Positions 4,795 to 53,608 of a stretch of DNA of 64,000 bases are shown piece after piece. The first letter of the stretch is position 1. Every line of letters begins with the position of its first letter. Source of the stretch: an uncultured Candidatus Saccharibacteria bacterium (GTDB taxonomy: Bacteria > Patescibacteriota > Minisyncoccia > Phycocordibacterales > Zambryskibacteraceae). Under the pieces are notes generated by a model, which worked only from the letters and a program-made list of their open reading frames with translations, did not search any database and had not been told where the DNA came from. The translations under genes were made by a program, and so were the position numbers. The stretch lies in contig CAZYVS010000001.1 in NCBI GenBank assembly GCA_964651655.1, positions 77,173 to 141,172 on the forward strand, given 5' to 3'.

Positions 4795-4844
4795 AGACCT
4801 GAGACTCCAGAGAAGTTTCTCTGGAGTCTCAGGTCTTTCTTTTT
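4795..4844 (+). terminator. perfect 20-bp inverted repeat (AGACCTGAGACTCCAGAGAA / TTCTCTGGAGTCTCAGGTCT) followed by TTCTTTTT; intrinsic-terminator-like hairpin or subterminal hairpin of the adjacent RAYT element
   Basis: Read directly in the sequence. It sits in the divergent region between proS (-) and the RAYT gene (+), with no upstream plus-strand gene. Confidence 0.45.
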
Positions 4845-4845
4845 A

Positions 4846-5562
4846 CATAGCCCTCCCCTATGTACATAGCCCCCGCCTATGTATAATGTAATGATGACTA
4901 TAAGAAAACTTTCATTCTCCATGAACGAGTACTATCATCTTTATAGCCGTGGAGTAGATAAACGTTTAATTTTCTTAGATAACAATGATCGCCATAGGTT
5001 TATGCGACTTATGTTTTTATGTAATGGCGACAAGCCGGTTATATATCGTGATACACAAAACCTTTCATTACAGAAAATTGATATGGGAAAAAGATTGGTT
5101 GCTATAGGAGCATATTGTTTAATGCCCAATCACTTTCATATTTTAGTAAGAGAAATAACAGAGGGTGGAATAACAAGATTTATGAGCAAATTGTTAACTG
5201 CGTATTCAACTTACTTTAACAAAAGACGAGCCAGAACAGGAGCTTTATTTTCCAGTGAATTCAAAGCGCAACATTTAGATACCGATGAGTATTTAAAATA
5301 TATCTTCGCTTACATACATCTTAACCCCCTTAAATTAATTGAATCGAGTTGGAGAGAAAGAAAAATAAATAGACAAACAGCAAATGCTTATCTTTCTAAA
5401 TACTATTTTTCAAGCTATCAAGATTATGTTGATGTTGTGCGAGAGATTTCTCTAATATTATCCAGGGATATTTTTCCTCAGTATTTTGTTAAAAAAGGAA
5501 GCTTCGAGACAAATATTAATGACTGGATTAATTTTGACCCACTTACATAGCCCCCGCCTATG
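4846..5562 (+). mobile_element. RAYT unit 1: RAYT-like Y1 (HUH) transposase gene bracketed by REP hairpins CATAGCCCCCGCCTATG
   Basis: REP copies at 4846-4862 (degenerate), 4865-4881 (overlaps the start codon) and 5546-5562 (overlaps the TAG stop). Each copy is an imperfect palindrome CATAG-N7-CTATG. Confidence 0.6.
4879..5550 (+). CDS. REP-associated tyrosine transposase (RAYT) / IS200-IS605 TnpA-like Y1 HUH transposase
   Basis: YHLYSRG…, LMPNHFHILV (HuH), AYIHLNP motifs. The true start is probably the MMTIRK Met a few codons downstream. Confidence 0.8.
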   Translation: MYNVMMTIRKLSFSMNEYYHLYSRGVDKRLIFLDNNDRHRFMRLMFLCNGDKPVIYRDTQNLSLQKIDMGKRLVAIGAYCLMPNHFHILVREITEGGITRFMSKLLTAYSTYFNKRRARTGALFSSEFKAQHLDTDEYLKYIFAYIHLNPLKLIESSWRERKINRQTANAYLSKYYFSSYQDYVDVVREISLILSRDIFPQYFVKKGSFETNINDWINFDPLT

Positions 5563-5575
5563 TATTAGACACTTG

Positions 5576-6700
5576 TTAGAAAATGTTACGGATATCATTG
5601 ATGGTAATAAGAAGCATCAAGAGAAGGAGCAGAGCGAAACCGGCGGTATTGACGATATTGAAAACTCTCGCCGAGATTCGTCTGCGAGTGACCGCTTCAA
5701 TCAAAATAAAAAATAAACGGCCACCGTCAAGCGCGGGAAAAGGTAAAAGATTTATAACGGCAAGATTAATTGATATCAGCGCGGTAAATGTCAGCAAATA
5801 AATAAAACCGAGTTCTCTCGCATCACCGACCATGCTTACTATACCCACAGGACCGGTAATGCTGGAAATATCGGCGGCACCGCCAAGAGCCTTAATAATA
5901 AATGCCATGATGGATTGTCCGGTTAATAAAGTAAGTCCGGTGGTTGTTTTAAGCCCATACCACAGAGCCTTAAACGGTCCGAGTTTAGCTATTCCTATGA
6001 CATCCATAGAAATGCCGACGGCCGGTCGATCGGCAAGAATTCCTTCTTTGGGCATCACAATTTTTTCTGATATTTCACCGCCTCTTTCCACTTTAAAAAC
6101 GATGGATTCGACGGACAGGGCGATAAAATCAGTAGCTTCTTTCGGCGAGATGTTTTCTCCGGCCACTTCGGGTAAGAATTCTGTTCCTCTTGAAAGCGAG
6201 ACTAGCGCGTCTCCGGATTTGATACCTGCCTCTTCGGCGGGAGAAGTCGGTAAGACTAAAGTTATTACCGTGCGCGGATTCTTGACGGGTAGAGCTAACC
6301 CTTCCGGCGCCGGTAGGCCAACAACAAATCCGAGTGAAAATAAAAACCAAGCGAAAAGAAAATTACCGGCCACTCCCGCCACTAACACGGCCACCTGAAT
6401 GCTTCTATTTTTCGACTGGAAACTCTCACTTGGAAGCTCAACCTCCAAGTACTTGGAGGTTGAGCTTCCAAGTTGTTGTTCTACGGGGTTTTCTCCGAAT
6501 ATTTTTACAAATCCGCCAAATGGCAACCAATTGAGTGTAAATGGTGTTCCTTTCCAAGTAAAAAGTTTCTTGGCCAGAGGTGGAAAACCGAGACCGAATT
6601 CATCAACACGTATGCCAAGTCTTTTAGCCACTAAGAAATGCCCAAATTCGTGAACAATGATAAGCGCACTTAAAATTACAATAAAGATAATAATCGACAC
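5576..6700 (-). CDS. rseP: RIP site-2 metalloprotease RseP (M50 family, PDZ-containing)
   Basis: HEFGHFLVAKRLG (HExxH) in TM1, a PDZ-like middle, and C-terminal LPFPALDGG (LDG motif). Confidence 0.85.
   Translation of the reverse strand: MSIIIFIVILSALIIVHEFGHFLVAKRLGIRVDEFGLGFPPLAKKLFTWKGTPFTLNWLPFGGFVKIFGENPVEQQLGSSTSKYLEVELPSESFQSKNRSIQVAVLVAGVAGNFLFAWFLFSLGFVVGLPAPEGLALPVKNPRTVITLVLPTSPAEEAGIKSGDALVSLSRGTEFLPEVAGENISPKEATDFIALSVESIVFKVERGGEISEKIVMPKEGILADRPAVGISMDVIGIAKLGPFKALWYGLKTTTGLTLLTGQSIMAFIIKALGGAADISSITGPVGIVSMVGDARELGFIYLLTFTALISINLAVINLLPFPALDGGRLFFILIEAVTRRRISARVFNIVNTAGFALLLLLMLLITINDIRNIF
6429..6472. repeat. perfect 44-nt palindrome inside the rseP coding sequence (CTTGGAAGCTCAACCTCCAAG-TA-CTTGGAGGTTGAGCTTCCAAG)
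   Basis: Read directly. It encodes …SSTSKYLEVELPSES… in a loop between TM1 and TM2 of RseP. Confidence 0.8.
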
Positions 6701-7886: not shown

Positions 7887-8331
7887 CTAAGAGTTCCACT
7901 TCAAAGATTAAAGTCGAGTTGGGTGGAATAGCGCCCACTCCCTGTTCACCATAACCATAATCCGGAGCGACGATGAGAAGACGCTTGCCTCCAACCTGCA
8001 TGCCGGAGAACCCTTCATCCCAACCGCGAATAACCTGGCCAACTCCAAGGGTGAAGCTGAGTGGGGTGTTCCTATCGCGCGAACTGTCAAAAACTTTTCC
8101 ATCCAAGAGAGTGCCCACATAGTGCACAGTCAAAGTGTCCCCCGGCAGAGCCGCAGCGCCCTCTCCCACAACTATATCTTGCGTTTCCACGCCTGTTTGC
8201 GGCATAGCAGCGTTTGAATTGCCGTCAGACGGGTTAAAAAGATTTATAATCGGGCCTGTAAACAAAAGATACGTTAAGAATGCTAGACCGACAAACACGG
8301 CAATCCATTGATTTCTGTTCAAATTTTTCAT
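7861..8331 (-). CDS. FKBP-type peptidyl-prolyl cis-trans isomerase, membrane-anchored/secreted
   Basis: [39 protein letters not shown]…[11 protein letters not shown]-terminal TM segment. Confidence 0.8.
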
Positions 8332-31534: not shown

Positions 31535-31826
31535 AAAATCGTAGCGAAGCCAGGACGACAACTGCTTGTCGTCCGGGCGATTTTTGAAGACGGAAGTATG
31601 TCCCGCAAGCTTGCGAGACAACTGAGTCCGGGGCTGGAAAATTTGATTTCGACGGAAATCAAATTATTGTGGCTCATACTAAATTTGCATGCGAAGTATA
31701 CAATGCTTTTCCTTTCTTTGCCCGTCCGTAGCCTGGGCGAAGGAGGGGGCGGAAACGGGGCGAGGGCTGTTTACAGCATATAACAACTTGGAATATAACA
31801 CAACGGAATACTATTATATAAACACT

Positions 31827-32048
31827 ATGACAAAAGCGATATTTTCAAAAGACCACAAATATACAGTCGGGCAACTCAAAAAAGCTCGTCTTGAAGCGGG
31901 TTTAGATCAAGCCGAAGTGGCGAAACTACTCGGCAGAACTCAACCTCATGTCTCAAAAATTGAGGCGGGACAAAGACGACTTGATATTACGCAACTTAAG
32001 GAATTTGCGAAGATCTATAAAAAATCATTAGAATATTTTATTAAATAA
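31827..32048 (+). CDS. HTH_XRE family regulator, R-M controller (C-protein)-like
   Basis: 73 aa; TVGQLKKARLEAGLDQAEVAKLLGRTQPHVSKIEAGQR (XRE HTH). The stop lies 1 nt before the next ORF. The track ORF starting at 31689 reads through the promoter. Confidence 0.6.
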   Translation: MTKAIFSKDHKYTVGQLKKARLEAGLDQAEVAKLLGRTQPHVSKIEAGQRRLDITQLKEFAKIYKKSLEYFIK

Positions 32049-32049
32049 T

Positions 32050-32652
32050 ATGACAGAAGTTCAAAATCATGGATTTGTTTTTGAAAATTGGATTAAAAGT
32101 ATTCTTGGTGTAAAAGAGCTTGCTTATAATTATACTCAAAAATGGGACATACCAGGTGAAACGCCAATAAGTGTTAAATGCATGGGACTTACAAATGCCC
32201 TTGAATTTGGAAGCACTGTAAGAATTTGGGAAATAAACGAAACTTTTACTCTCGTCGTCGGAAGGTGGGAACAGGTTGGATTTAAAAAATTAATTAGAAG
32301 TATAGATGAAATAGATATTACTCCAAAAATTTTAATAAAAATGAGAGGCAGTATTACTCTTGAAGAATTAAAAGATTTTGATAAAAAAATAAAATCTTTT
32401 CCCGCGGGAAAAGAAGGACAAAGGAAGGGAATTGAATTCGCTAAAAAATGGAAAGCTGAAAGAAAAAATAGACTGGGATTACTAACTATTACACACAAAA
32501 TAGATAGCAAAGATCAACGCCGGATTCAATGCAACTTAAATTACAAAAACTATATTAAATTATTCGGTCAACCATCTGAAAGAGTTGAGTTCCGTGGTAA
32601 TATTTTTAATCAAGACATAGATCATGGACCAAGAAAGTTTAATAGTGAATAA
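32050..32652 (+). CDS. hypothetical protein (candidate restriction endonuclease component)
   Basis: No recognisable motifs. AT-rich. Immediately downstream of the C-like regulator and convergent with two MTase genes. Confidence 0.3.
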   Translation: MTEVQNHGFVFENWIKSILGVKELAYNYTQKWDIPGETPISVKCMGLTNALEFGSTVRIWEINETFTLVVGRWEQVGFKKLIRSIDEIDITPKILIKMRGSITLEELKDFDKKIKSFPAGKEGQRKGIEFAKKWKAERKNRLGLLTITHKIDSKDQRRIQCNLNYKNYIKLFGQPSERVEFRGNIFNQDIDHGPRKFNSE

Positions 32653-32653
32653 A

Positions 32654-33283
32654 ATGGCAACAGTTTATATAAACAATGGAATAATTGAATTGAGGCTAAC
32701 GTCAGCTCGTAGTAGGGTGAGAATTTGTGATATCAATGGCAATCATATTTCTAAACCATCTTCACAAAATATTAATTTTGATAACCACTATGTTGAATGG
32801 ATGATTACAAATAATGAGTTAATAAAAATAATAAGTCAGCAACTCACAAGAGAAGAGATAATCAATCTAAAAAATGAACTACGAGAAACAGCTATTTCCT
32901 TGAAAGATTCTAATTTTTACAGCAGGAAAGCTGAAAAAGAAGACATTGACCAAACTTTTGGAAATTTTTTAGTGTATAAATATGAAGAAATTTTTTATTC
33001 CTTTGAAAAAAATATTGATGTAAATTTACAGGTGAAAATTACATTTAAAATGGGTGATTATATCTTAGCAGCGCACATGTTTGTATTGATTGGTCTTACT
33101 AATCCAAACATAATACTAAACAATCGTGATAATAGTATTGCAAACAATAATGCTCTAGGACCAGGAGCAAAATGTGTTTGGAGTCCATCAAATCAGACAA
33201 TTAGCGAAATTGCTAAAGCACTAGCTTGTTCTTCTGAAGGTCATAAAAATGATCTGATTAACCTATTAGACAATATTACTTAA
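32654..33283 (+). CDS. hypothetical protein (candidate restriction endonuclease component)
   Basis: No recognisable motifs. Start taken at the internal Met (MATVYINNG) just after the upstream stop. Confidence 0.3.
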   Translation: MATVYINNGIIELRLTSARSRVRICDINGNHISKPSSQNINFDNHYVEWMITNNELIKIISQQLTREEIINLKNELRETAISLKDSNFYSRKAEKEDIDQTFGNFLVYKYEEIFYSFEKNIDVNLQVKITFKMGDYILAAHMFVLIGLTNPNIILNNRDNSIANNNALGPGAKCVWSPSNQTISEIAKALACSSEGHKNDLINLLDNIT

Positions 33284-34410
33284 ATACTAACTTTAAAATC
33301 ATAAATATTTTCTTTCTTAATGGATTTACTGCCTATACGACAGGTAATATTTCTAAAGTAATCTATTTTTGAATTTATATTTTGGCAAATTTTCTCTTTA
33401 ATTTCTTTGTTTTCATTGTATTCATCTTTAAAATCAAATATGAAGAACATATCATTGAGAATATCTTTTTTAATATTGATTAAACCACATTTTCCAACAC
33501 TAGAATTACCAACCCTGACAACAGCCATTTTATAATCAACAACATTACCACCTTTTGGAATGATGTTTTTTTCTAATATGTTCTTTGCCGATATATTATT
33601 ATCTTGAAATGATTTTTGTGCCTTAATGTTATTGGAACTAAAATAATCCCTTAATGGTGTCCCTTTTTCATTATTAATGAGACCATGATTTTTATTAAAA
33701 ATCACTTGGGGAATAAGCTCTTCATTTATGTTTGAAATATTAAAAATATCTTCATTTTTTTTACCATTTTCGTATATAACAATGATCTTATCTTTAAATT
33801 CAGTTGTGTTAGTAAATAAAGCAAAACAACAAGGTATATTTCGGTCAAACCACACTTTATCATTTTGATATATCACTATTGTTGAAAATATTTCTCGGAG
33901 CTTGTTTTTAACAAATATATTTCTGTTTTTTATAAAAAATGATATTGGTAGAACAAATCCAATAGAAGAATTATCATCTTTAAGTTGTTTAAGTGATTTT
34001 AAAATAAAAGCATTTTCTATCTTCTGCTTATCGTTTTTAATATCAGAAAAATCTAAATACAGTTCTGGTTTAATTTTTGATTGTTTATATTTTGAAGCAT
34101 AGTAATAACTATCCTTCAAGTTGTATTTTGTAAAAGGAGGATTACCAACAATAAGATCAAATTTTTCTTCTAGAGATGTTTGAAAAAAATCTGCTGGATT
34201 TGATGTTAATTCACTATCTATCTCATATCCTGTTACATTTTTATACCCCTTATTAGATAATTCACTTATAAAATTACCTGTTCCAAAAGATGGCTCAAGA
34301 ATAGATACGCCTTTTGAGTATTTTTTATAGAAAAAAAGTAAATCAAGTAATTTTGATACTATTTTGGTTTTTGTAAAATATTGACCTAAAATTTCTTTTT
34401 TATTTTTCAT
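33280..34410 (-). CDS. N6-adenine DNA methyltransferase, gamma class (TaqI/Eco57I-like), with C-terminal TRD
   Basis: GQYFTKTKIV (motif X), ILEPSFGTGNF (motif I), VGNPPF (motif IV). Confidence 0.8.
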   Translation of the reverse strand: MKNKKEILGQYFTKTKIVSKLLDLLFFYKKYSKGVSILEPSFGTGNFISELSNKGYKNVTGYEIDSELTSNPADFFQTSLEEKFDLIVGNPPFTKYNLKDSYYYASKYKQSKIKPELYLDFSDIKNDKQKIENAFILKSLKQLKDDNSSIGFVLPISFFIKNRNIFVKNKLREIFSTIVIYQNDKVWFDRNIPCCFALFTNTTEFKDKIIVIYENGKKNEDIFNISNINEELIPQVIFNKNHGLINNEKGTPLRDYFSSNNIKAQKSFQDNNISAKNILEKNIIPKGGNVVDYKMAVVRVGNSSVGKCGLINIKKDILNDMFFIFDFKDEYNENKEIKEKICQNINSKIDYFRNITCRIGSKSIKKENIYDFKVSI

Positions 34411-34412
34411 GT

Positions 34413-35051
34413 TTAAAATTTTCTAACTCTCTCATTGGCTATTTTACTATAATTAGCGTCAATTTCAAAACCTATATAATTCCTTTTTATCTGTTTACAT
34501 GTCACAGCAACGCTACCACTTCCTATAAATGGATCTAAAACAACATCATTTTCCCTAGAGAACATAGCTAATATTTCTTTTATAAATGTTTTGGGCTTAG
34601 GTGTTGGGTGATTAATAAAGCCCTCGTCTGGTTCAACCATAGAACCCGGTGTATCCATAAATATATCCTTCCCCTTTTTAACGATTTTTGCATTACCCTT
34701 TTTAAATACTATGCAAGACATATATTTGGTAAATCCAATTGAAGAAGAAACCCTACCGTTTGGACAATGTAAAATAAAATTCCAATAATAAGTAAAAGGA
34801 TTATTTTTAAATACATCAGGTAAAAATTTAGTACTAAAAAATGTAATATAAAAAGAATCATCTTTTAGAACTCTATGGCTTTCAGGCAGAGAAGCATAAA
34901 ATAAACTTAAGTCGTGATCGTTTCTTATTCCAGTTTTATTTAATCCATAAGGAGGGTCTGTAAAAATAAGATCAACGGATTTATCAGGAATCATTCTAAA
35001 TCCATCAAAACAATCAACATTTTGGATTGTGTTTAGTAAATTATTATGCAT
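34413..35051 (-). CDS. DNA methyltransferase, beta class (N4-C/N6-A, N6_N4_Mtase family)
   Basis: DLIFTDPPYGL (motif IV) precedes LDPFIGSGSVAV (motif I), the beta-class order. Confidence 0.8.
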   Translation of the reverse strand: MHNNLLNTIQNVDCFDGFRMIPDKSVDLIFTDPPYGLNKTGIRNDHDLSLFYASLPESHRVLKDDSFYITFFSTKFLPDVFKNNPFTYYWNFILHCPNGRVSSSIGFTKYMSCIVFKKGNAKIVKKGKDIFMDTPGSMVEPDEGFINHPTPKPKTFIKEILAMFSRENDVVLDPFIGSGSVAVTCKQIKRNYIGFEIDANYSKIANERVRKF

Positions 35052-35066
35052 AAAATTTGATAGAGT

Positions 35067-35411
35067 TTAAAATAAATATTTACCCAATTGTTTTGATAAA
35101 TTTTTTGTAACATCTTTGTCAGTTTTCAGTCTAATACTATAATTTATATTAGGATAACTCATGTATTTTGCATCTCTGAAACCCAACCCTTTCGGCTTTT
35201 CTTTAAAAGCAAAACCAACATTAAGTTTGCAATCTGACACAAATTTCCCACGAAAATAAACTACAGTAACAATATCATCTTTTAACATATATCTAACATA
35301 AACAGTGCTAAGACGAAAATTTATTTTAGGGTTGAGAGACATAATAAATTTATGTAATTGATTAAAAATTACTAACTTATCACCCAATTTTTTTTCTAAT
35401 TCATTATCCAT
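35067..35411 (-). CDS. hypothetical protein (between the LexA-like gene and the MTase genes)
   Basis: 114 aa, no recognisable motif. Confidence 0.35.
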   Translation of the reverse strand: MDNELEKKLGDKLVIFNQLHKFIMSLNPKINFRLSTVYVRYMLKDDIVTVVYFRGKFVSDCKLNVGFAFKEKPKGLGFRDAKYMSYPNINYSIRLKTDKDVTKNLSKQLGKYLF

Positions 35412-35434
35412 AATTTATTTATTATATCAAATAA

Positions 35435-36097
35435 TTAAATAGGTTCGTAACGATATTCATTTTCTTGAGGCTGTTTAATAACCTCGACAACTTTTCCGTT
35501 CACTAAATACTCGTCGAGATCATCCTCATGGATATGAATTGGCGGAAAAAATTGACTTGATTCTGACTGTAAAACAATCTGTTTATGAGCCTTATCTTCT
35601 AAAAAACGTTTAATATTGGCAAGTCCACCAATAACAGAAAGAACATAATCTCCAGTTTTTACGTTTTTATCCTCTCCGTCCACTATTACATAATCACCAT
35701 CATCAATAGATTTTCCGTTGACGCTCGCCCTGTTCATTGATAACCCAACAGCTTTTACAGCAAAAAGATTATCAAGATGACTAGTTGGAAGTAATTTTTT
35801 AGAAATGGGCAAAGTTCCCTCTATTCGAGCTTCTGCAAGCATAGTTGCGTCACCACAATTTGCTAAACCTAGAATAGGTATGGAGAGAAGACTTTTTGCT
35901 TTAGTGGTTAGTGGAGATTTGATAGAAATTGCCCTTTTTTTCTTTCCATTATCAAGAAGCCCTAATTTTTCCATATGAAATTTAACTTTTTGTGGATGCT
36001 CTATTCCAATGAGTCTACCTATCTGTCTCAGACCTATTTTCTTTAAATCATAACGTTGTGATAATTCTAAAAGTTTTTGTTGGGTTGGATGCATCAT
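35435..36097 (-). CDS. LexA-like repressor (N-terminal wHTH + S24 peptidase)
   Basis: N-terminal LexA-type DNA-binding region and C-terminal S24 with AVGLSMNRA (Ser nucleophile) and a downstream Lys. The start codon sits right after a -10 box, so the mRNA is leaderless. Confidence 0.75.
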   Translation of the reverse strand: MMHPTQQKLLELSQRYDLKKIGLRQIGRLIGIEHPQKVKFHMEKLGLLDNGKKKRAISIKSPLTTKAKSLLSIPILGLANCGDATMLAEARIEGTLPISKKLLPTSHLDNLFAVKAVGLSMNRASVNGKSIDDGDYVIVDGEDKNVKTGDYVLSVIGGLANIKRFLEDKAHKQIVLQSESSQFFPPIHIHEDDLDEYLVNGKVVEVIKQPQENEYRYEPI

Positions 36098-40727: not shown

Positions 40728-40758
40728 CCATCGGGAGCGTGCAAAGCACGCTCCCGAT
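40728..40758 (-). terminator. intrinsic terminator hairpin (ATCGGGAGCGTGC-AAA-GCACGCTCCCGAT) downstream of the lipoprotein gene
   Basis: Perfect 13-bp stem, read directly. Confidence 0.55.
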
Positions 40759-40772
40759 GACCCAAAGAACAT

Positions 40773-45096: not shown

Positions 45097-45139
45097 ATCA
45101 GACAAGGTTAGCCATCAGACAAGGTCGAACCTTGTCGGG
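45097..45139. repeat. REP family 2 copy (…ACAAGGTTAGCC-ATCAG-ACAAGGTCGAACCTTGTC) upstream of RAYT2
   Basis: Palindrome GACAAGGTCGAACCTTGTC, read directly. Two more copies lie in-frame inside RAYT2 (45313-45333, 45821-45841). Confidence 0.7.
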
Positions 45140-45158
45140 CATGGGTTATAATTAATAA

Positions 45159-45839
45159 ATGACCAGAAACGTAACATTTGCTCCAGGAGAGTTTTATCAT
45201 CTATATAATCGCGGTACTGAAAAAAGGAAAATTTTTCTTAATCGCCAGGACTATGAGAGATTCCTATCACTTCTCTACTTAGCCAACGGAATGGCGCGCG
45301 TAGATATTAAGCGACAAGGTTCGACCTTGTCGGAATTACTAACTCAAGATAGAGATGAGAAACTTGTAGATATTTGTGCTTATTGTCTCATGCCAAACCA
45401 TTTTCATCTGATTGTAAGGGAAACTAAAGATTATGGAATAAGTAAGTTTATGCAAAAACTTATTACTGGATACACAATGTACTTTAATAAAGCGCATGAG
45501 AGAAATGGTGCCCTTTTACAAGGAAAATTCAAATCTGAACATGCCAACAGTGATCGTTATCTAAATTATCTTATTGCCTATTTACATCTAAATCCTATAA
45601 AACTTTTCGATCCCACATGGAAAGAACATGGGATTAAAGATCAAGAAAGGGCAGAAAAATTCTTAGATGATTATGTGTACTCAAGTTTCTTAGATTATAG
45701 TGGTTACGATCGATTAGAAAAAAGTATTCTTTCTTTGGACGCCCTCCCTGCTTATACTTCAATCCCAAAAGACTTTCGATCGAGCATCACTGAATGGTTT
45801 GACGGACAAGGTTCGACCTTGTCGATGCAACAATCATAG
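45159..45839 (+). CDS. REP-associated tyrosine transposase (RAYT) / IS200-IS605 TnpA-like Y1 HUH transposase, second copy
   Basis: FYHLYNRG, LMPNHFHLIV, AYLHLNP. Two REP palindromes are embedded in-frame, encoding …KRQGSTLSELL… and the C-terminal …DGQGSTLSMQQS. Confidence 0.8.
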   Translation: MTRNVTFAPGEFYHLYNRGTEKRKIFLNRQDYERFLSLLYLANGMARVDIKRQGSTLSELLTQDRDEKLVDICAYCLMPNHFHLIVRETKDYGISKFMQKLITGYTMYFNKAHERNGALLQGKFKSEHANSDRYLNYLIAYLHLNPIKLFDPTWKEHGIKDQERAEKFLDDYVYSSFLDYSGYDRLEKSILSLDALPAYTSIPKDFRSSITEWFDGQGSTLSMQQS

Positions 45840-47291: not shown

Positions 47292-49166
47292 TTAACGAGA
47301 CGAGCGAATCATCTTAAGAAAAACGTCTTGAGGAACATTGACCTTCCCTCGTTCTTTCATTTTTTTCTTGCCTTTCTTTTGTTTCTCACGAAGCTTCATT
47401 TTGCGAGTGACATCTCCACCATACATATGTTGAGTAACGTCTTTTTTCATACCGCTTAAAGTACGAGAAGCGACGATTCTACCCATAACTCTTGCTTGGA
47501 TTTTCAAAGTAAACATCTGTCTGGGCAATATAGTGGCCAGTTTCTCCACATCCGATTCGCATTCCGTTTCTATTTGTCGGCGCGAGATTACTTTGGCAAA
47601 TGCCGGAACCACCTCATCGGCTATCAAAATATCTAAACGAGTGACATTGGCTCGTCTTTCGCCAGAAATTGTGTAAGAGATGGAACCGAAACCCGACGTG
47701 ACACTTTTAAGTTTATCAAAAAATCCCCTCATCAATTCGCGCAGAGGCATTTCAAATGTCATAGATGTCCGATTCTCACCGAAGTCTTTTGTTTCCTTCA
47801 ATTCGGCCTCAAACTCATAGAGAAGCTGAATAACGGGACTGATAAATTCTGGAGGAATAATTATCGCGGCTCTCACCCATGGTTCCCAAACCGAATCTAT
47901 TAGATACTCTTCCGGAAAAAAGGAAGGGGTATAGATGTAACCTTCACGGCCGTTCTTGTATATGATTCTGTAAGTGATGCTGGGCAAGGTTATAACCAGA
48001 GATAAATTAAATTCGCGTCTCAATCTTTCGGTAATAATTTCCAAATGAAGCATGCCGAGAAAACCGGTGCGGAAACCTCGACCCAGTACTTTGGAAGATT
48101 CTTCTTCAAACGAAAAGGCGGAATCCGATAATCGTAATTTTGAAAGAGCCTGACGCAGAAGAAAGAAATCAGCCCCGCCTCGCGTCGATGAGCGACCGCG
48201 AGTCGAGGCGGGCTGACTTTCCGGATAGATAGAGGCCCAGACCACCGGCCGAGACTTTTCATAACCGGAGAGAGCTTCAGACGTATCGAGCAAAGAAGCC
48301 ACCGTATCTCCCACGGAAGCAATACCGGGTTCTTTGATACCGGTTACAATGTATCCGATTTCTCCGGAAGATATTTGGTCGGCTTCCGTCTCGTTCGGAG
48401 TCAGAAATCCCACTTCAAGCGCCTGAAACGATCGGCCGGCCGCTTTAAACTTTAATTTGTCGCCCCGATTTACGGAACCATTAAAAACACGGACAAAAAC
48501 AATCACCCCCCGATGGTTAGAGTATTTGAAATCAAAAACCAGAGATTTAAAGGTTAGACCTTGAGAATGGGTATTTAAGGTCTGACCTTGGTGCGGGGCT
48601 GGAATTCGTTTTACTATTTCCTCAAGAAGTTTCTCAACACCTTCGCCCGTTTTCCCGGACACCGGCAGGACGTCTTCCTGTTTAATCTTCAGTAGTCTGG
48701 ATATCTCATCCCGCGTCTCTTCTACGCGGGCTAAAGGAGAATCTATTTTAGAAACGACGGGAATAATTTTGAGCCCGGCGGATTGGGCCATTTCCAAAGT
48801 AGTTAGAGTTTGAGCTTGTACTCCTTGAGTAGCATCCACTAGAAGTATTGAACCCTCTACCGCACGAAGGGCTCTTGAGACTTCATAGGAGAAATCTATG
48901 TGACCGGGAGTATCAATCAAATTTAATATAAAGGTCGAACCTTGGGAATCAGTATTTAAGGTTCGACCTTGGGGAATGTACACCATCCTCACCGGTTGCA
49001 TTTTTATGGTAATGCCGCGTTCGCGTTCCAGTTCCATGGAATCAAGCACCTGTTCGCGCATTTCTCGCTTTTCAATCGTCCCGGTCAGTTCAAGCATTCG
49101 GTCTGCTAAAGTGGATTTGCCGTGATCAATATGGGCGATAATAGAAAAATTACGAATATTATCCAT
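47292..49166 (-). CDS. lepA: translation elongation factor 4 (LepA) carrying two 14-aa in-frame REP-encoded insertions
   Basis: AHIDHGKSTLADR, DTPGHIDF, NKID-equivalent SKID, plus the C-terminal LepA domain. 624 aa equals a typical ~596 aa plus 2x14. Insertions QGRTLNTDSQGSTF (G domain) and QGQTLNTHSQGLTF. Confidence 0.9.
   Translation of the reverse strand: MDNIRNFSIIAHIDHGKSTLADRMLELTGTIEKREMREQVLDSMELERERGITIKMQPVRMVYIPQGRTLNTDSQGSTFILNLIDTPGHIDFSYEVSRALRAVEGSILLVDATQGVQAQTLTTLEMAQSAGLKIIPVVSKIDSPLARVEETRDEISRLLKIKQEDVLPVSGKTGEGVEKLLEEIVKRIPAPHQGQTLNTHSQGLTFKSLVFDFKYSNHRGVIVFVRVFNGSVNRGDKLKFKAAGRSFQALEVGFLTPNETEADQISSGEIGYIVTGIKEPGIASVGDTVASLLDTSEALSGYEKSRPVVWASIYPESQPASTRGRSSTRGGADFFLLRQALSKLRLSDSAFSFEEESSKVLGRGFRTGFLGMLHLEIITERLRREFNLSLVITLPSITYRIIYKNGREGYIYTPSFFPEEYLIDSVWEPWVRAAIIIPPEFISPVIQLLYEFEAELKETKDFGENRTSMTFEMPLRELMRGFFDKLKSVTSGFGSISYTISGERRANVTRLDILIADEVVPAFAKVISRRQIETECESDVEKLATILPRQMFTLKIQARVMGRIVASRTLSGMKKDVTQHMYGGDVTRKMKLREKQKKGKKKMKERGKVNVPQDVFLKMIRSSR
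48550..48591. repeat. REP family 2 composite element (AAGGTTAGACCTT-GAGAATGGGTATTT-AAGGTCTGACCTT-GG), 42 nt, in-frame in lepA
   Basis: Read directly. Confidence 0.8.
48931..48972. repeat. REP family 2 composite element (AAGGTCGAACCTT-GGGAATCAGTATTT-AAGGTTCGACCTT-GG), 42 nt, in-frame in lepA
   Basis: Read directly. Same architecture and spacer length as the 48550 copy. Confidence 0.8.
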
Positions 49167-49193
49167 ACAAACTTATAGATGATAAGGGCAACT

Positions 49194-53253: not shown

Positions 53254-53572
53254 GGTGTCGGATAGTTGCCCCGATATTATGTCGGGGAGGAAAGTCCGAA
53301 CATTCGTTGTGAGATGTCGCACATGTGCAATTTCACAAAAGGGTAGCAGGTAACACCTGTCGGGAGTAATCCTAGAGATGCGAACAGTGACGAAGCCGGC
53401 TTGCCTCGCCTTGGCGGGGTGAATCCGGAGTGAAACGGCAAAATTCTTACCTGAATGCAAGGCCGTGTCCCGATTCACCATGTGTGAATCGTGGAAGTGC
53501 CGCTATAGGTTCTAAGCGATTAGAATCACAGATAAATAACTATCGACAACAGAATTCGGCTTATAGACACCC
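53254..53572 (+). ncRNA. rnpB: RNase P RNA (bacterial type, compact)
   Basis: GAGGAAAGTCCGAAC (P4 5' strand), GGGTAGCAGGTAACACCTG, GAGTGAAACGGC, ACAGAATTCGGCTTA (P4 3' strand). P1 pairing GGTGTC/GACACC. Own promoter TTGTTA-N17-TATAAT at ~53217-53246. Ends are approximate (+/-5 nt). Confidence 0.8.
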
Positions 53573-53573
53573 A

Positions 53574-53608
53574 ACCCCGCCCCGACATATGTCGGGGCGG
53601 GGTTGTTT
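53574..53608 (+). terminator. intrinsic terminator (CCCCGCCCCGACAT/ATGTCGGGGCGGGG + TTGTTTTT) of rnpB
   Basis: Perfect palindrome followed by a T-run, read directly. Confidence 0.7.

What the first reader, a model, noticed from the sequence alone, without database searches (positions are those of the whole stretch)
6429..6472. Perfect 44-nt palindrome inside the rseP coding region
CTTGGAAGCTCAACCTCCAAG-TA-CTTGGAGGTTGAGCTTCCAAG is a flawless inverted repeat with 21-bp arms inside an essential protease gene. It encodes …SSTSKYLEVELPSES… in an inter-TM loop. Perfect long palindromes are strongly counter-selected in CDS. This looks like a third in-frame palindromic insertion of a different family, or a structured mRNA element.
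Basis: seen in the sequence. Interest (0 to 1): 0.6.

Follow-up and report, generated by a model that had tools for sequence, protein, structure and literature searches.

The report
In-frame REP-like palindrome inside rseP
The perfect palindrome in this candidate-phyla-radiation bacterium's rseP gene is one copy of a widespread family of tiny hairpin-forming repeats that sit in-frame inside many essential genes and that flank, in related genomes, the genes of a hairpin-cutting transposase of the type known to mobilise such repeats.

Summary
It lies in-frame in rseP (5576-6700, minus strand) of a Candidatus Zambryskibacteria MAG and encodes L77-S91, in a loop that AlphaFold2 models as unstructured.

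It is not a one-off. A metagenome scan for its end motifs, with the interior left free, returned at least 120 loci. That is 117 elements in 58 unrelated host ORFs, including gatB, fmt, miaA, leuS, gltX, topA, ftsK, smc, uvrC and pheT, in all three reading phases. In 71 of 87 distinct sequences the free 9-nt interior is perfectly complementary between the arms, with almost no G-U pairs.

RseP orthologs carry it patchily: as a doublet, as a single unit, in another phase, or not at all. The interiors co-vary.

In three metagenome loci a Y1/HUH transposase gene is flanked by these units and also contains them. The window holds two homologous Y1 genes, each flanked by a different hairpin repeat. 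One of those repeats also sits in-frame in lepA. The modelled Y1 fold matches E. coli RAYT bound to a REP hairpin best.

Verdict: a REPIN-like, probably RAYT-mobilised element tolerated inside coding sequence. This is a new variant of a known kind.

The parts
6428..6473 (.). The element: a perfect 46-nt palindrome, a doublet of two inverted 23-nt units. Each unit reads ACTTGGA-N9-TCCAAGT.
   Evidence: (repeat I2), and (covariance model R1, 72.8 bits, E 6e-19; the only family member in the window).
6428..6450 (.). Unit 1 (plus-strand reading ACTTGGA AGCTCAACC TCCAAGT): conserved 7-nt ends and a lineage-specific 9-nt interior.
   Evidence: the ends are invariant across 76 family members and the interior co-varies with unit 2.
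6451..6473 (.). Unit 2 (ACTTGGA GGTTGAGCT TCCAAGT), the exact reverse complement of unit 1.
5576..6700 (-). Host gene rseP (M50 site-2 protease, 374 aa). The element encodes residues L77-S91, between the GGFVKIFGE motif and the second long helix.
   Evidence: In the AF2 model, residues 67-88 have pLDDT below 50 and show no secondary structure.
4879..5550 (+). Y1/HUH transposase gene #1 (RAYT-like), inserted between rseP and proS. It is a homolog of the transposases that are flanked by ACTTGGA-type units elsewhere, but here it is flanked by a different hairpin. It is therefore a parallel system, not the cognate one.
   Evidence: Pfam Y1_Tnp 33.2 bits (cut-off 23). NCBIfam RAYT 39 bits (cut-off 80). 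AF2 model (pLDDT 89) gives PDB 4ER8 as top hit. The gene is absent between rseP and proS in L082 and L084.
4844..4883 (+). Two tandem copies of the hairpin TACATAGCCC(T/C)C(C/G)CCTATGTA, immediately upstream of Y1 gene #1.
5544..5564 (+). A third copy of the same hairpin, TACATAGCCCCCGCCTATGTA, at the 3' end of Y1 gene #1.
45159..45836 (+). Y1/HUH transposase gene #2 (45% identical to #1). Its own hairpin GACAAGGT(CGA/TCG)ACCTTGTC lies at 45118-45136 (upstream), 45312-45332 (inside the CDS) and 45805-45823 (3' end).
   Evidence: (tblastn), (Pfam Y1_Tnp 35.1 bits).
48931..48970 (.). In-frame doublet of the second family's core (AAGGTCGAACCTT ... AAGGTTCGACCTT) inside lepA (ORF 47295-49172, minus strand). 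This is the same phenomenon with a cognate Y1 gene only 3 kb away.

Best explanation
The palindrome is a REPIN-like element: two inverted copies of a 23-nt REP-like unit (ACTTGGA-N9-TCCAAGT). It belongs to a dispersed repeat family of Parcubacteria (candidate phyla radiation).

Shown here:
- The family is dispersed across many genes.
- Its two arms stay strictly complementary.
- It is present or absent among close orthologs.
- Its units flank RAYT-like Y1/HUH transposase genes.
- The rseP copy lies in a loop predicted to be disordered.

Inferred:
- Units are recognised as single-strand DNA hairpins by a cognate RAYT-like transposase and are copied or moved at replication forks without target-site duplication, as in REP/RAYT and IS200/IS605 systems.
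- One copy landed in codons about 77-91 of rseP in an ancestor within Zambryskibacteria. It survived because it was in-frame and stop-free, and because the loop between the membrane-reentrant beta-loop and TM2 tolerates extra residues.
- Since then the arms have evolved in concert. This happened either by hairpin-templated correction (template switching) or because only intact hairpins are propagated.

The 15 residues it adds are probably a passenger, not an adaptation.
For: 1. Family. The scan CTTGGA-N9-TCCAA-N0-6-TTGGA-N9-TCCAAG has 22 specified bases, so about one chance hit or fewer is expected. Hosts include GatB, Fmt, MiaA, LeuRS, GluRS, RNase HII, TopA, FtsK, SMC, UvrD, PheT, UvrC, MurD-like and GDH.

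2. Palindromy. The unconstrained interior is 9/9 complementary in 71 of 87 distinct sequences. On alignment A3, 99.6% of cells pair, all 9 interior pairs show 28-45 double changes, 0 of 500 shuffles reach the observed values, and slid registers pair at most 51%.

3. Insertion polymorphism in rseP. The closest relative L206 has an empty site. L207 has a single unit identical to one arm of L081. L186, P0028 and P0115 carry a doublet in another phase. The distribution on a tree is patchy.

4. Copies with the same interior occur at several sites of a single contig (L124, L132, L177, L119).

5. Three Y1 transposase genes (L177 430-1143, L132 5394-6026, L119 656-1309) are flanked on both sides by these units and also contain them.

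6. The window's homologous Y1 genes are each flanked by their own hairpin family, and one of those families also lies in-frame in lepA.

7. The HUH motif and a conserved Tyr are invariant. The AF2 model's best PDB match is 4ER8, RAYT bound to a REP hairpin (E 2.5e-6), ahead of the IS608, ISDra2 and IS200 TnpA structures.

8. There is no target-site duplication, and the flanks are random beyond [C][A/C]A.

9. The encoded peptide lies in a loop with pLDDT below 50.

10. Literature precedents. REPINs are REP doublets that form hairpins, with common compensatory changes, and are linked to flanking RAYTs (PMC3116915). Intragenic REPs have been described (PMC3733652).
Against: - No cognate Y1 gene flanked by ACTTGGA-type units lies in this 64-kb window. 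The adjacent Y1 gene has a different hairpin.
- The window and about 60 kb of related Zambryskibacteria contigs hold only the rseP copy. In this lineage the element may be an immobile relic.
- Mobilisation by the Y1 protein is inferred from gene-repeat association only.
- The Y1 proteins score below NCBIfam's RAYT threshold (39 and 26 bits against 80). They also have no sequence-level PDB match.
- The units lack the GTAG or CGTC tag of classical REPs.
- A selfish copy that only sits at one locus would be expected to decay. The perfect arms at an old orthologous site therefore need an extra process (hairpin correction) or host-level selection, and neither was tested.
Confidence: 0.72

Rival explanations
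1. A functional RNA hairpin inside the rseP mRNA, kept by selection on RNA structure. It could act as an RNase III or stability determinant, or as a translational pause that helps membrane insertion.
For: The predicted RNA hairpin is very stable (-40.7 kcal/mol, z -9.0). The same site in several orthologs keeps pairing through double changes. One ortholog (L083) has a T.G opposition on the sense strand.
Against: The same element sits in at least 58 unrelated genes, in all three phases and at arbitrary relative positions. Pairing is strictly Watson-Crick: 3 G-U cells of 1596, and mismatches are GT 1, CA 3, AC 2. That is not what RNA-level selection gives. Close orthologs lack the element. The units also flank transposase genes. 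A 0-2 nt loop cannot form as RNA.
Confidence: 0.08
2. A host-domesticated DNA element. The paired CTTGGA/TCCAAG half-sites would bind a dimeric protein, or extrude as a cruciform, and serve chromosome organisation, replication or defence. Classical REPs are known to bind gyrase, IHF and Pol I.
For: The 6-7-nt ends are invariant while the interiors are free. The arms stay perfect even at an apparently old orthologous site. The density is about one copy per 60 kb.
Against: A protein site with a non-specific spacer would not need the two interiors to be complementary. Presence is patchy among close relatives. None was found in 634 kb from other named Patescibacteria. The association with Y1 genes points to mobility.
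Confidence: 0.1
3. Local origin without transposition. A short quasi-palindrome in a hypervariable loop was expanded into a perfect palindrome by template switching or slippage, and similar sequences arose independently elsewhere.
For: Single units, doublets, centre indels (40, 41, 44 and 46-nt forms) and flanking partial duplications such as CAACTTGGACAACTTGGA show active slippage at these sites.
Against: This cannot explain identical 7-nt ends in 58 unrelated genes. It also cannot explain identical interiors at several sites of one contig, or the clustering around Y1 genes.
Confidence: 0.04
4. An assembly or amplification artefact: a fold-back chimera.
For: Perfect palindromes can be produced by MDA or by assembly errors.
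Against: The ORF stays intact. The same site carries the element in independent assemblies from ENA, JGI and Logan, with diverged but still complementary arms.
Confidence: 0.01

Closest known systems
REP / REPIN elements with their RAYT (REP-associated tyrosine transposase) genes, also called 'REPtrons' (Nunvar 2010; Bertels & Rainey 2011, PMC3116915; Ton-Hoang 2012; Di Nocera 2013, PMC3733652)
   Same: - A short palindromic unit of about 21-23 nt.
- Units paired in inverted orientation to form one long hairpin.
- Compensatory changes between the arms.
- No target-site duplication.
- Each Y1/HUH transposase gene is flanked by its own repeat type.
- The transposase fold is closest to E. coli RAYT (4ER8).
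- Some classical REPs are also reported inside genes (PMC3733652).
   Different: - Here the elements lie mostly inside coding sequence and are read through in-frame, in essential genes.
- There is no GTAG or CGTC tag.
- The doublet spacer is only 0-6 nt, against tens of nt in Pseudomonas REPINs.
- The ends are conserved across lineages while the 9-nt core is lineage-specific.
- The transposases fall below the curated RAYT model threshold.
- The hosts are ultra-small CPR genomes, where I found no report of REP/RAYT systems.
Rickettsia palindromic elements (RPE; Ogata et al. 2000, from my own knowledge)
   Same: Selfish-looking palindromic repeats inserted in-frame into many unrelated, often essential genes. 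They add a peptide segment that the host protein tolerates, and orthologs show presence or absence.
   Different: RPEs are 100-150 bp, are restricted to Rickettsia, have unrelated sequences, and no mobilising enzyme has been identified. The present elements are 40-46 bp and are associated with a candidate transposase.
IS200/IS605 insertion sequences and their gene-less derivatives (PATEs)
   Same: The same Y1/HUH transposase superfamily (Pfam PF01797). Hairpin ends are recognised as single-stranded DNA, and there is no target-site duplication.
   Different: IS200/IS605 ends are two different imperfect hairpins in direct orientation, with defined tetra- or pentanucleotide cleavage sites. Here the two units are exact inverted copies and symmetric.
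Coding palindromes in Nematomorpha mitochondrial genes (PMC6649704) and PARCELs (PMC2996958)
   Same: Perfect or near-perfect inverted repeats that are translated as part of proteins.
   Different: They differ in size (up to 284 bp, or tandem amphipathic repeats), in hosts and in sequences. Neither has conserved-end, variable-core units or a link to a Y1 transposase.

Membership tests
REP/REPIN-RAYT system | A short (about 20-40 bp) palindromic unit repeated at many loci | tested here: met
   117 elements in 58 unrelated host ORFs. Several copies with the same interior occur on single contigs. In this window, however, there is only one copy.
REP/REPIN-RAYT system | Units paired in inverted orientation, forming one hairpin (REPIN) | tested here: met
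   The window's arms are 23/23 complementary. 71 of 87 family sequences are perfect in the unconstrained interior. Covariation is shown. A minority are direct pairs or single units.
REP/REPIN-RAYT system | A cognate Y1 transposase gene flanked by the same units | tested here: met
   Met in L177, L132 and L119, with units on both flanks and inside the gene. Not met within the window for this family: the two window Y1 genes carry other hairpins.
REP/REPIN-RAYT system | The transposase is a RAYT (HUH plus Tyr, with RAYT-specific motifs) | tested here: inconclusive
   Pfam Y1_Tnp passes (33-35 bits against 23). HUH and Tyr are invariant. The best fold match is RAYT 4ER8, and one JGI homolog is named RayT. 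But NCBIfam REP_Tyr_transpos gives 39 and 26 bits against a cut-off of 80.
REP/REPIN-RAYT system | Extragenic location | tested here: not met
   The window copy and most family members lie inside long ORFs with recognisable Pfam domains, and are read in-frame.
REP/REPIN-RAYT system | A conserved GTAG or CGTC tetranucleotide at one end of the unit (PMC3733652) | tested here: not met
   The ends are [C][A/C]ACTTGGA ... TCCAAGT[G/T][G]. No GTAG or CGTC is present.
REP/REPIN-RAYT system | The transposase binds and cleaves the single-stranded hairpin | not testable with these tools
   This needs biochemistry with an L177-type protein and ACTTGGA-N9-TCCAAGT oligonucleotides.
Rickettsia palindromic elements (RPE) | A palindromic repeat inserted in-frame in many unrelated ORFs, with presence or absence among orthologs | tested here: met
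Rickettsia palindromic elements (RPE) | Length of 100-150 bp, with RPE consensus sequences, in Rickettsia | tested here: not met
   The elements are 40-46 nt, have an unrelated sequence, and their hosts are Zambryskibacteria and relatives of Giovannonibacteria.
Classical MITE (terminal inverted repeats plus target-site duplication, DDE transposase) | A target-site duplication flanking the element | tested here: not met
   The flanks of 81 distinct insertions show no direct repeat and are random beyond 2-3 nt.
IS200/IS605-derived PATE | Distinct left and right imperfect hairpins in direct orientation | tested here: not met
   The two units are exact reverse complements in most copies.

The most novel reading that the evidence does not exclude
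Parcubacteria (CPR) carry several co-resident RAYT-like transposase paralogs, each with its own hairpin repeat. Their ultra-compact REPIN-like doublets routinely live inside essential genes and are translated. A transposase-hairpin system would then be a main generator of the hypervariable loops seen in CPR core proteins such as RseP, GatB and LepA. The strictly perfect arms at old orthologous sites would be kept by hairpin-templated self-correction, or by a host function of the hairpin. In that case the elements are more than decaying passengers.
Probability: 0.3. Interest if true: 0.75.

Novelty: new variant of a known kind. Interest (0 to 1): 0.55.

Why it matters
REP/RAYT systems are defined as extragenic and are known mainly from proteobacteria. 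In-frame 'coding' palindromic repeats are known from Rickettsia, but without a known mobilising enzyme. This case joins the two: tiny hairpin doublets sit in-frame in dozens of essential genes of streamlined CPR bacteria, and there is a candidate cognate Y1 transposase.

If that link holds, three things follow:
- It gives a testable mechanism for how such elements enter coding sequence.
- It explains part of the loop-length hypervariability of CPR core proteins, which matters for annotation, alignment and structure prediction.
- It shows that genomes with almost no intergenic space can still host repeat-transposase partnerships, by parking the repeats in permissive protein loops.

Tried and rejected
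- **Chance:** rejected.
- **Link to the adjacent Y1 gene (4879-5550):** its flanking hairpins are TACATAGCCCCCGCCTATGTA, not ACTTGGA-type. It is therefore not the cognate enzyme. Orthologous loci carry the rseP element without this gene.
- **More family copies in the window:** relaxed motif searches and a filter-free covariance-model search found none. The weaker hits are unrelated perfect palindromes scored only for being hairpins.
- **Genome-collection scan for RseP relatives:** That was useful only to show that their loops are short and lack the element.
- **RNA-level selection via excess G-U:** none was seen.
- **'Designed' stop-codon avoidance:** the number of open frames is no better than with random palindromic interiors (4.8 against 4.7 of 6).
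- **Long loops of other RseP orthologs (L208, L209):** no long palindromes.
- **Viral contigs:** 0 matches.
- **Sequence searches of the Y1 protein against PDB:** nothing found. Only the fold search did.
- **Literature searches for CPR plus palindromic or in-frame elements:** nothing relevant.
- **My own errors:** a wrong L081 coordinate spoiled alignment A2, which I redid as A3. One search failed because more than 100 sources were given.

Full report
**1. Observation**

The reported sequence is present. It is a perfect palindrome of 46 nt rather than 44: arms 6428-6450 and 6451-6473, 100% complementary, with no spacer. The 21-mer occurs nowhere else in the window, even with three mismatches allowed, and none is expected in shuffled sequence. 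The predicted hairpin has a free energy of -25.2 kcal/mol as DNA and -40.7 kcal/mol as RNA, about 9 standard deviations beyond shuffles.

It lies in the 374-aa ORF at 5576-6700 on the minus strand. That ORF is an M50 site-2 protease, 100% identical to an NCBI 'RIP metalloprotease RseP [Candidatus Zambryskibacteria bacterium]'. The palindrome is read in-frame as residues L77-S91 (LGSSTSKYLEVELPS).

**2. The orthologous site**

In an alignment of 39 RseP orthologs at 64-80% identity, the stretch between GGFVKIFGEN and SFQSK is hypervariable in length. The closest relatives P0002 and P0012, and many others, lack the segment. A subset carries a similar peptide.

I fetched the DNA of these orthologs. 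Wherever the peptide is present, so is the palindrome.
- The ends ACTTGGA...TCCAAGT are conserved.
- The 9-nt interior differs, and it changes on both arms together. The window has AGCTCAACC/GGTTGAGCT. L081 has AGTCGGACT/AGTCCGACT, with five pair positions changed and the palindrome still perfect. L082 has AGTCCAACT/AGTTGGACT, with 3 nt deleted at the centre and the palindrome still perfect. L086 and L093 differ from L084 by concerted changes.
- L083 has one T.G opposition and L084 has one C.C.
- L207 has a single 23-nt unit identical to one arm of L081.
- L206 is an empty site (ENPEPLDLSAPDSFQSK) with no palindrome.
- L186, and by their peptides P0028 and P0115, carry a doublet a few codons upstream in a different reading phase. 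At least two independent insertions therefore hit this loop.

On a neighbour-joining tree built without the loop, presence is patchy, and sister sequences differ in state. That is not what is seen.

**3. A family, not a singleton**

I scanned the metagenome collection for CTTGGA-N9-TCCAA-N0-6-TTGGA-N9-TCCAAG. This pattern has 22 specified bases, so about one chance match or fewer is expected.

After excluding three loci with tandem 22-nt arrays, there are 117 elements and 87 distinct sequences. They lie in 58 BLAST-unrelated host ORF clusters. Only 10 elements are in rseP, and most are inside ORFs of 200-860 aa, in all three phases.

Pfam identifies the hosts as core genes: GatB, Fmt, MiaA, LeuRS, GluRS, RNase HII, topoisomerase I, FtsK, SMC, UvrD-type helicase, PheT, a Mur ligase, UvrC, glutamate dehydrogenase and glycosyltransferases. 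GatB relatives are named Giovannonibacteria, Azambacteria or Parcubacteria. No element was found in 634 kb from other named Patescibacteria or in viral contigs.

The pattern left the interiors free. Even so, 71 of 87 sequences are 9/9 complementary and 5 more are 8/9. On an alignment of 76 members (A3), which I pre-filtered for at least 8/9 complementarity:
- 99.6% of cells pair;
- every interior pair shows 28-45 double changes;
- no shuffle of 500 reaches the observed values;
- slid registers pair at most 51%;
- G-U occurs in only 3 of 1596 cells.

Mismatch types show no sense-strand G-U bias. The complementarity is therefore Watson-Crick, as expected for a DNA hairpin or for copying, rather than for RNA-level selection.

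The flanks are unrelated beyond [C][A/C]A, and there is no target-site duplication. The junction between units varies, giving elements of 40, 41, 44 or 46 nt. Partial flank duplications such as CAACTTGGACAACTTGGA occur.

GatB orthologs repeat the rseP picture. They carry a doublet, a single unit, other interiors, other positions, or nothing.

**4. Link to a transposase**

Some contigs carry several copies with the same interior (L124, L132, L119, L177). In L177 the copies surround a 237-aa ORF homologous to the window's Y1 gene. A doublet lies just upstream (365-413), two units lie inside the CDS, and one unit lies just after the stop (1146-1170). L132 and L119 show the same arrangement. This is the diagnostic layout of RAYT genes with their cognate REPs (PMC3116915, PMC3733652).

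The window itself has two homologs.
- Gene #1 (4879-5550) is inserted between rseP and proS, which are adjacent in L082 and L084. It is flanked by TACATAGCCCCCGCCTATGTA, twice upstream and once downstream.
- Gene #2 (45159-45836) has GACAAGGT(CGA/TCG)ACCTTGTC upstream, inside and at its 3' end. The core of this second repeat also forms an in-frame doublet inside lepA at 48931-48970.

Each paralog therefore has its own hairpin family, as in REP-RAYT co-evolution.

The proteins pass Pfam Y1_Tnp, and their HUH motif and a Tyr are invariant. They have more than 6000 homologs, annotated 'transposase' or 'RayT', in Parcubacteria MAGs. They score below NCBIfam's RAYT threshold. An AF2 model of gene #1 (pLDDT 89) matches PDB 4ER8 best, which is E. 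coli RAYT bound to a REP hairpin. IS608, ISDra2 and IS200 TnpA follow.

**5. Why rseP tolerates it**

In the AF2 model of the window's RseP (pLDDT 80), residues 67-88 have pLDDT below 50 and no secondary structure. They lie directly before the long helix 99-127. This is the region that varies in length across orthologs.

The conserved ends contain no stop codon in any frame. About half of the elements are open in all six frames, but that is no better than with random interiors. Survival therefore reflects filtering rather than design.

**6. Mechanism and its limits**

Shown here: membership of a dispersed palindromic family, strict arm complementarity with covariation, insertion polymorphism, association of the family with RAYT-like genes, and location in a disordered loop.

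Inferred: the units act as single-strand hairpin substrates of a cognate Y1 transposase, and that enzyme placed a copy in rseP. The arms then stay perfect either through hairpin-templated correction or because only intact hairpins propagate.

Weak points:
- No cognate gene lies in this window.
- Only one copy was seen in the window plus about 60 kb of related Zambryskibacteria contigs.
- There is no biochemical evidence.

**7. Comparison and novelty**

The element works like a REPIN and behaves like a Rickettsia palindromic element. It fails two defining REP features: it is not extragenic, and it has no GTAG or CGTC tag. Its transposase is below the curated RAYT cut-off. I therefore do not file it as a canonical REP.

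Intragenic REPs have been noted before (PMC3733652), and compensatory changes in REPINs are documented (PMC3116915). I found no paper that connects such elements with CPR or Patescibacteria.

I rate it a new variant of a known kind, with moderate interest.

Noticed in passing
window 4844-5564: A compact 'REPtron': Y1 transposase gene #1 with two tandem TACATAGCCC.C.CCTATGTA hairpins upstream and one downstream. It is inserted between rseP and proS, which are adjacent in L082 and L084. An 86-89% identical copy sits next to rseP in L086, L149 and L189.
   Followed up: partly
window 4795-4836: A perfect 42-nt palindrome (AGACCTGAGACTCCAGAGAA GT TTCTCTGGAGTCTCAGGTCT) followed by a T-run. It is intergenic, just upstream of the TACATAG hairpins. 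It could be a terminator or yet another repeat family; which one is unresolved.
   Followed up: no
window 45118-45836; L177 603-631 and 921-955; L132 5561-5583; L119 1093-1128; L143 216-234: Several Y1 transposase genes carry a copy of their own cognate hairpin inside their coding sequence, at the same hypervariable alignment position (columns about 55-100 of A4). This could be self-insertion into a permissive loop or an autoregulatory site.
   Followed up: partly
window 48931-48970 (lepA, ORF 47295-49172, minus strand): An in-frame doublet of the second hairpin family, inside the GTPase domain of LepA (…IPQGRTLNTDSQGSTF…). It lies 3 kb from its cognate Y1 gene.
   Followed up: partly
window 53572-53605, 40729-40759, 31547-31580: Further perfect or near-perfect GC-rich palindromes. 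The first has 34 nt (CAACCCCGCCCCGACAT|ATGTCGGGGCGGGGTTG). The second has 14-nt arms at the 5' end of an 864-aa DUF11/He_PIG ORF. The third is an imperfect one. Neither their families nor their contexts were examined.
   Followed up: no
window 32001-36000: GC content drops to 0.28-0.29, against about 0.44 elsewhere. This could be a foreign island or an unusual locus.
   Followed up: no
L098, L140, L102: Tandem arrays of a 22-nt unit with the same ends (CTTGGAGGATAGATTTCCAAGG repeated), inside ORFs of about 300 aa. The context appears different from the doublets, and any relation to the family is unknown.
   Followed up: no
GatB orthologs P0121-P0240; L114 about 8100-8180: GatB of relatives of Giovannonibacteria has other recurrent insert peptides at hypervariable sites. 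LTSLRTDEEGNPTEAKFP has DNA that is an imperfect inverted repeat, GGGAAATTGACCTCT…AGAGGCCAAATTTCCC. LAVKPPSGGLT is palindromic only by codon inference. Further coding-palindrome families are likely.
   Followed up: partly
L035 (rseP of MAG nzgw457), within the GG..N region: A GC-rich palindrome with 14-nt arms, CGGCGCGCGTTTTCGAAGAAAACGCGCGCCG. It lies in the conserved RRAFSKKTRA stretch of RseP and adds no length, so it is not an insertion.
   Followed up: no
L087, L090, L104, L153: Adjacent units with different, non-complementary interiors (GGCAAGACC next to AACCCGACG), in apparently non-coding DNA. These are hetero-doublets of two subfamilies.
   Followed up: no
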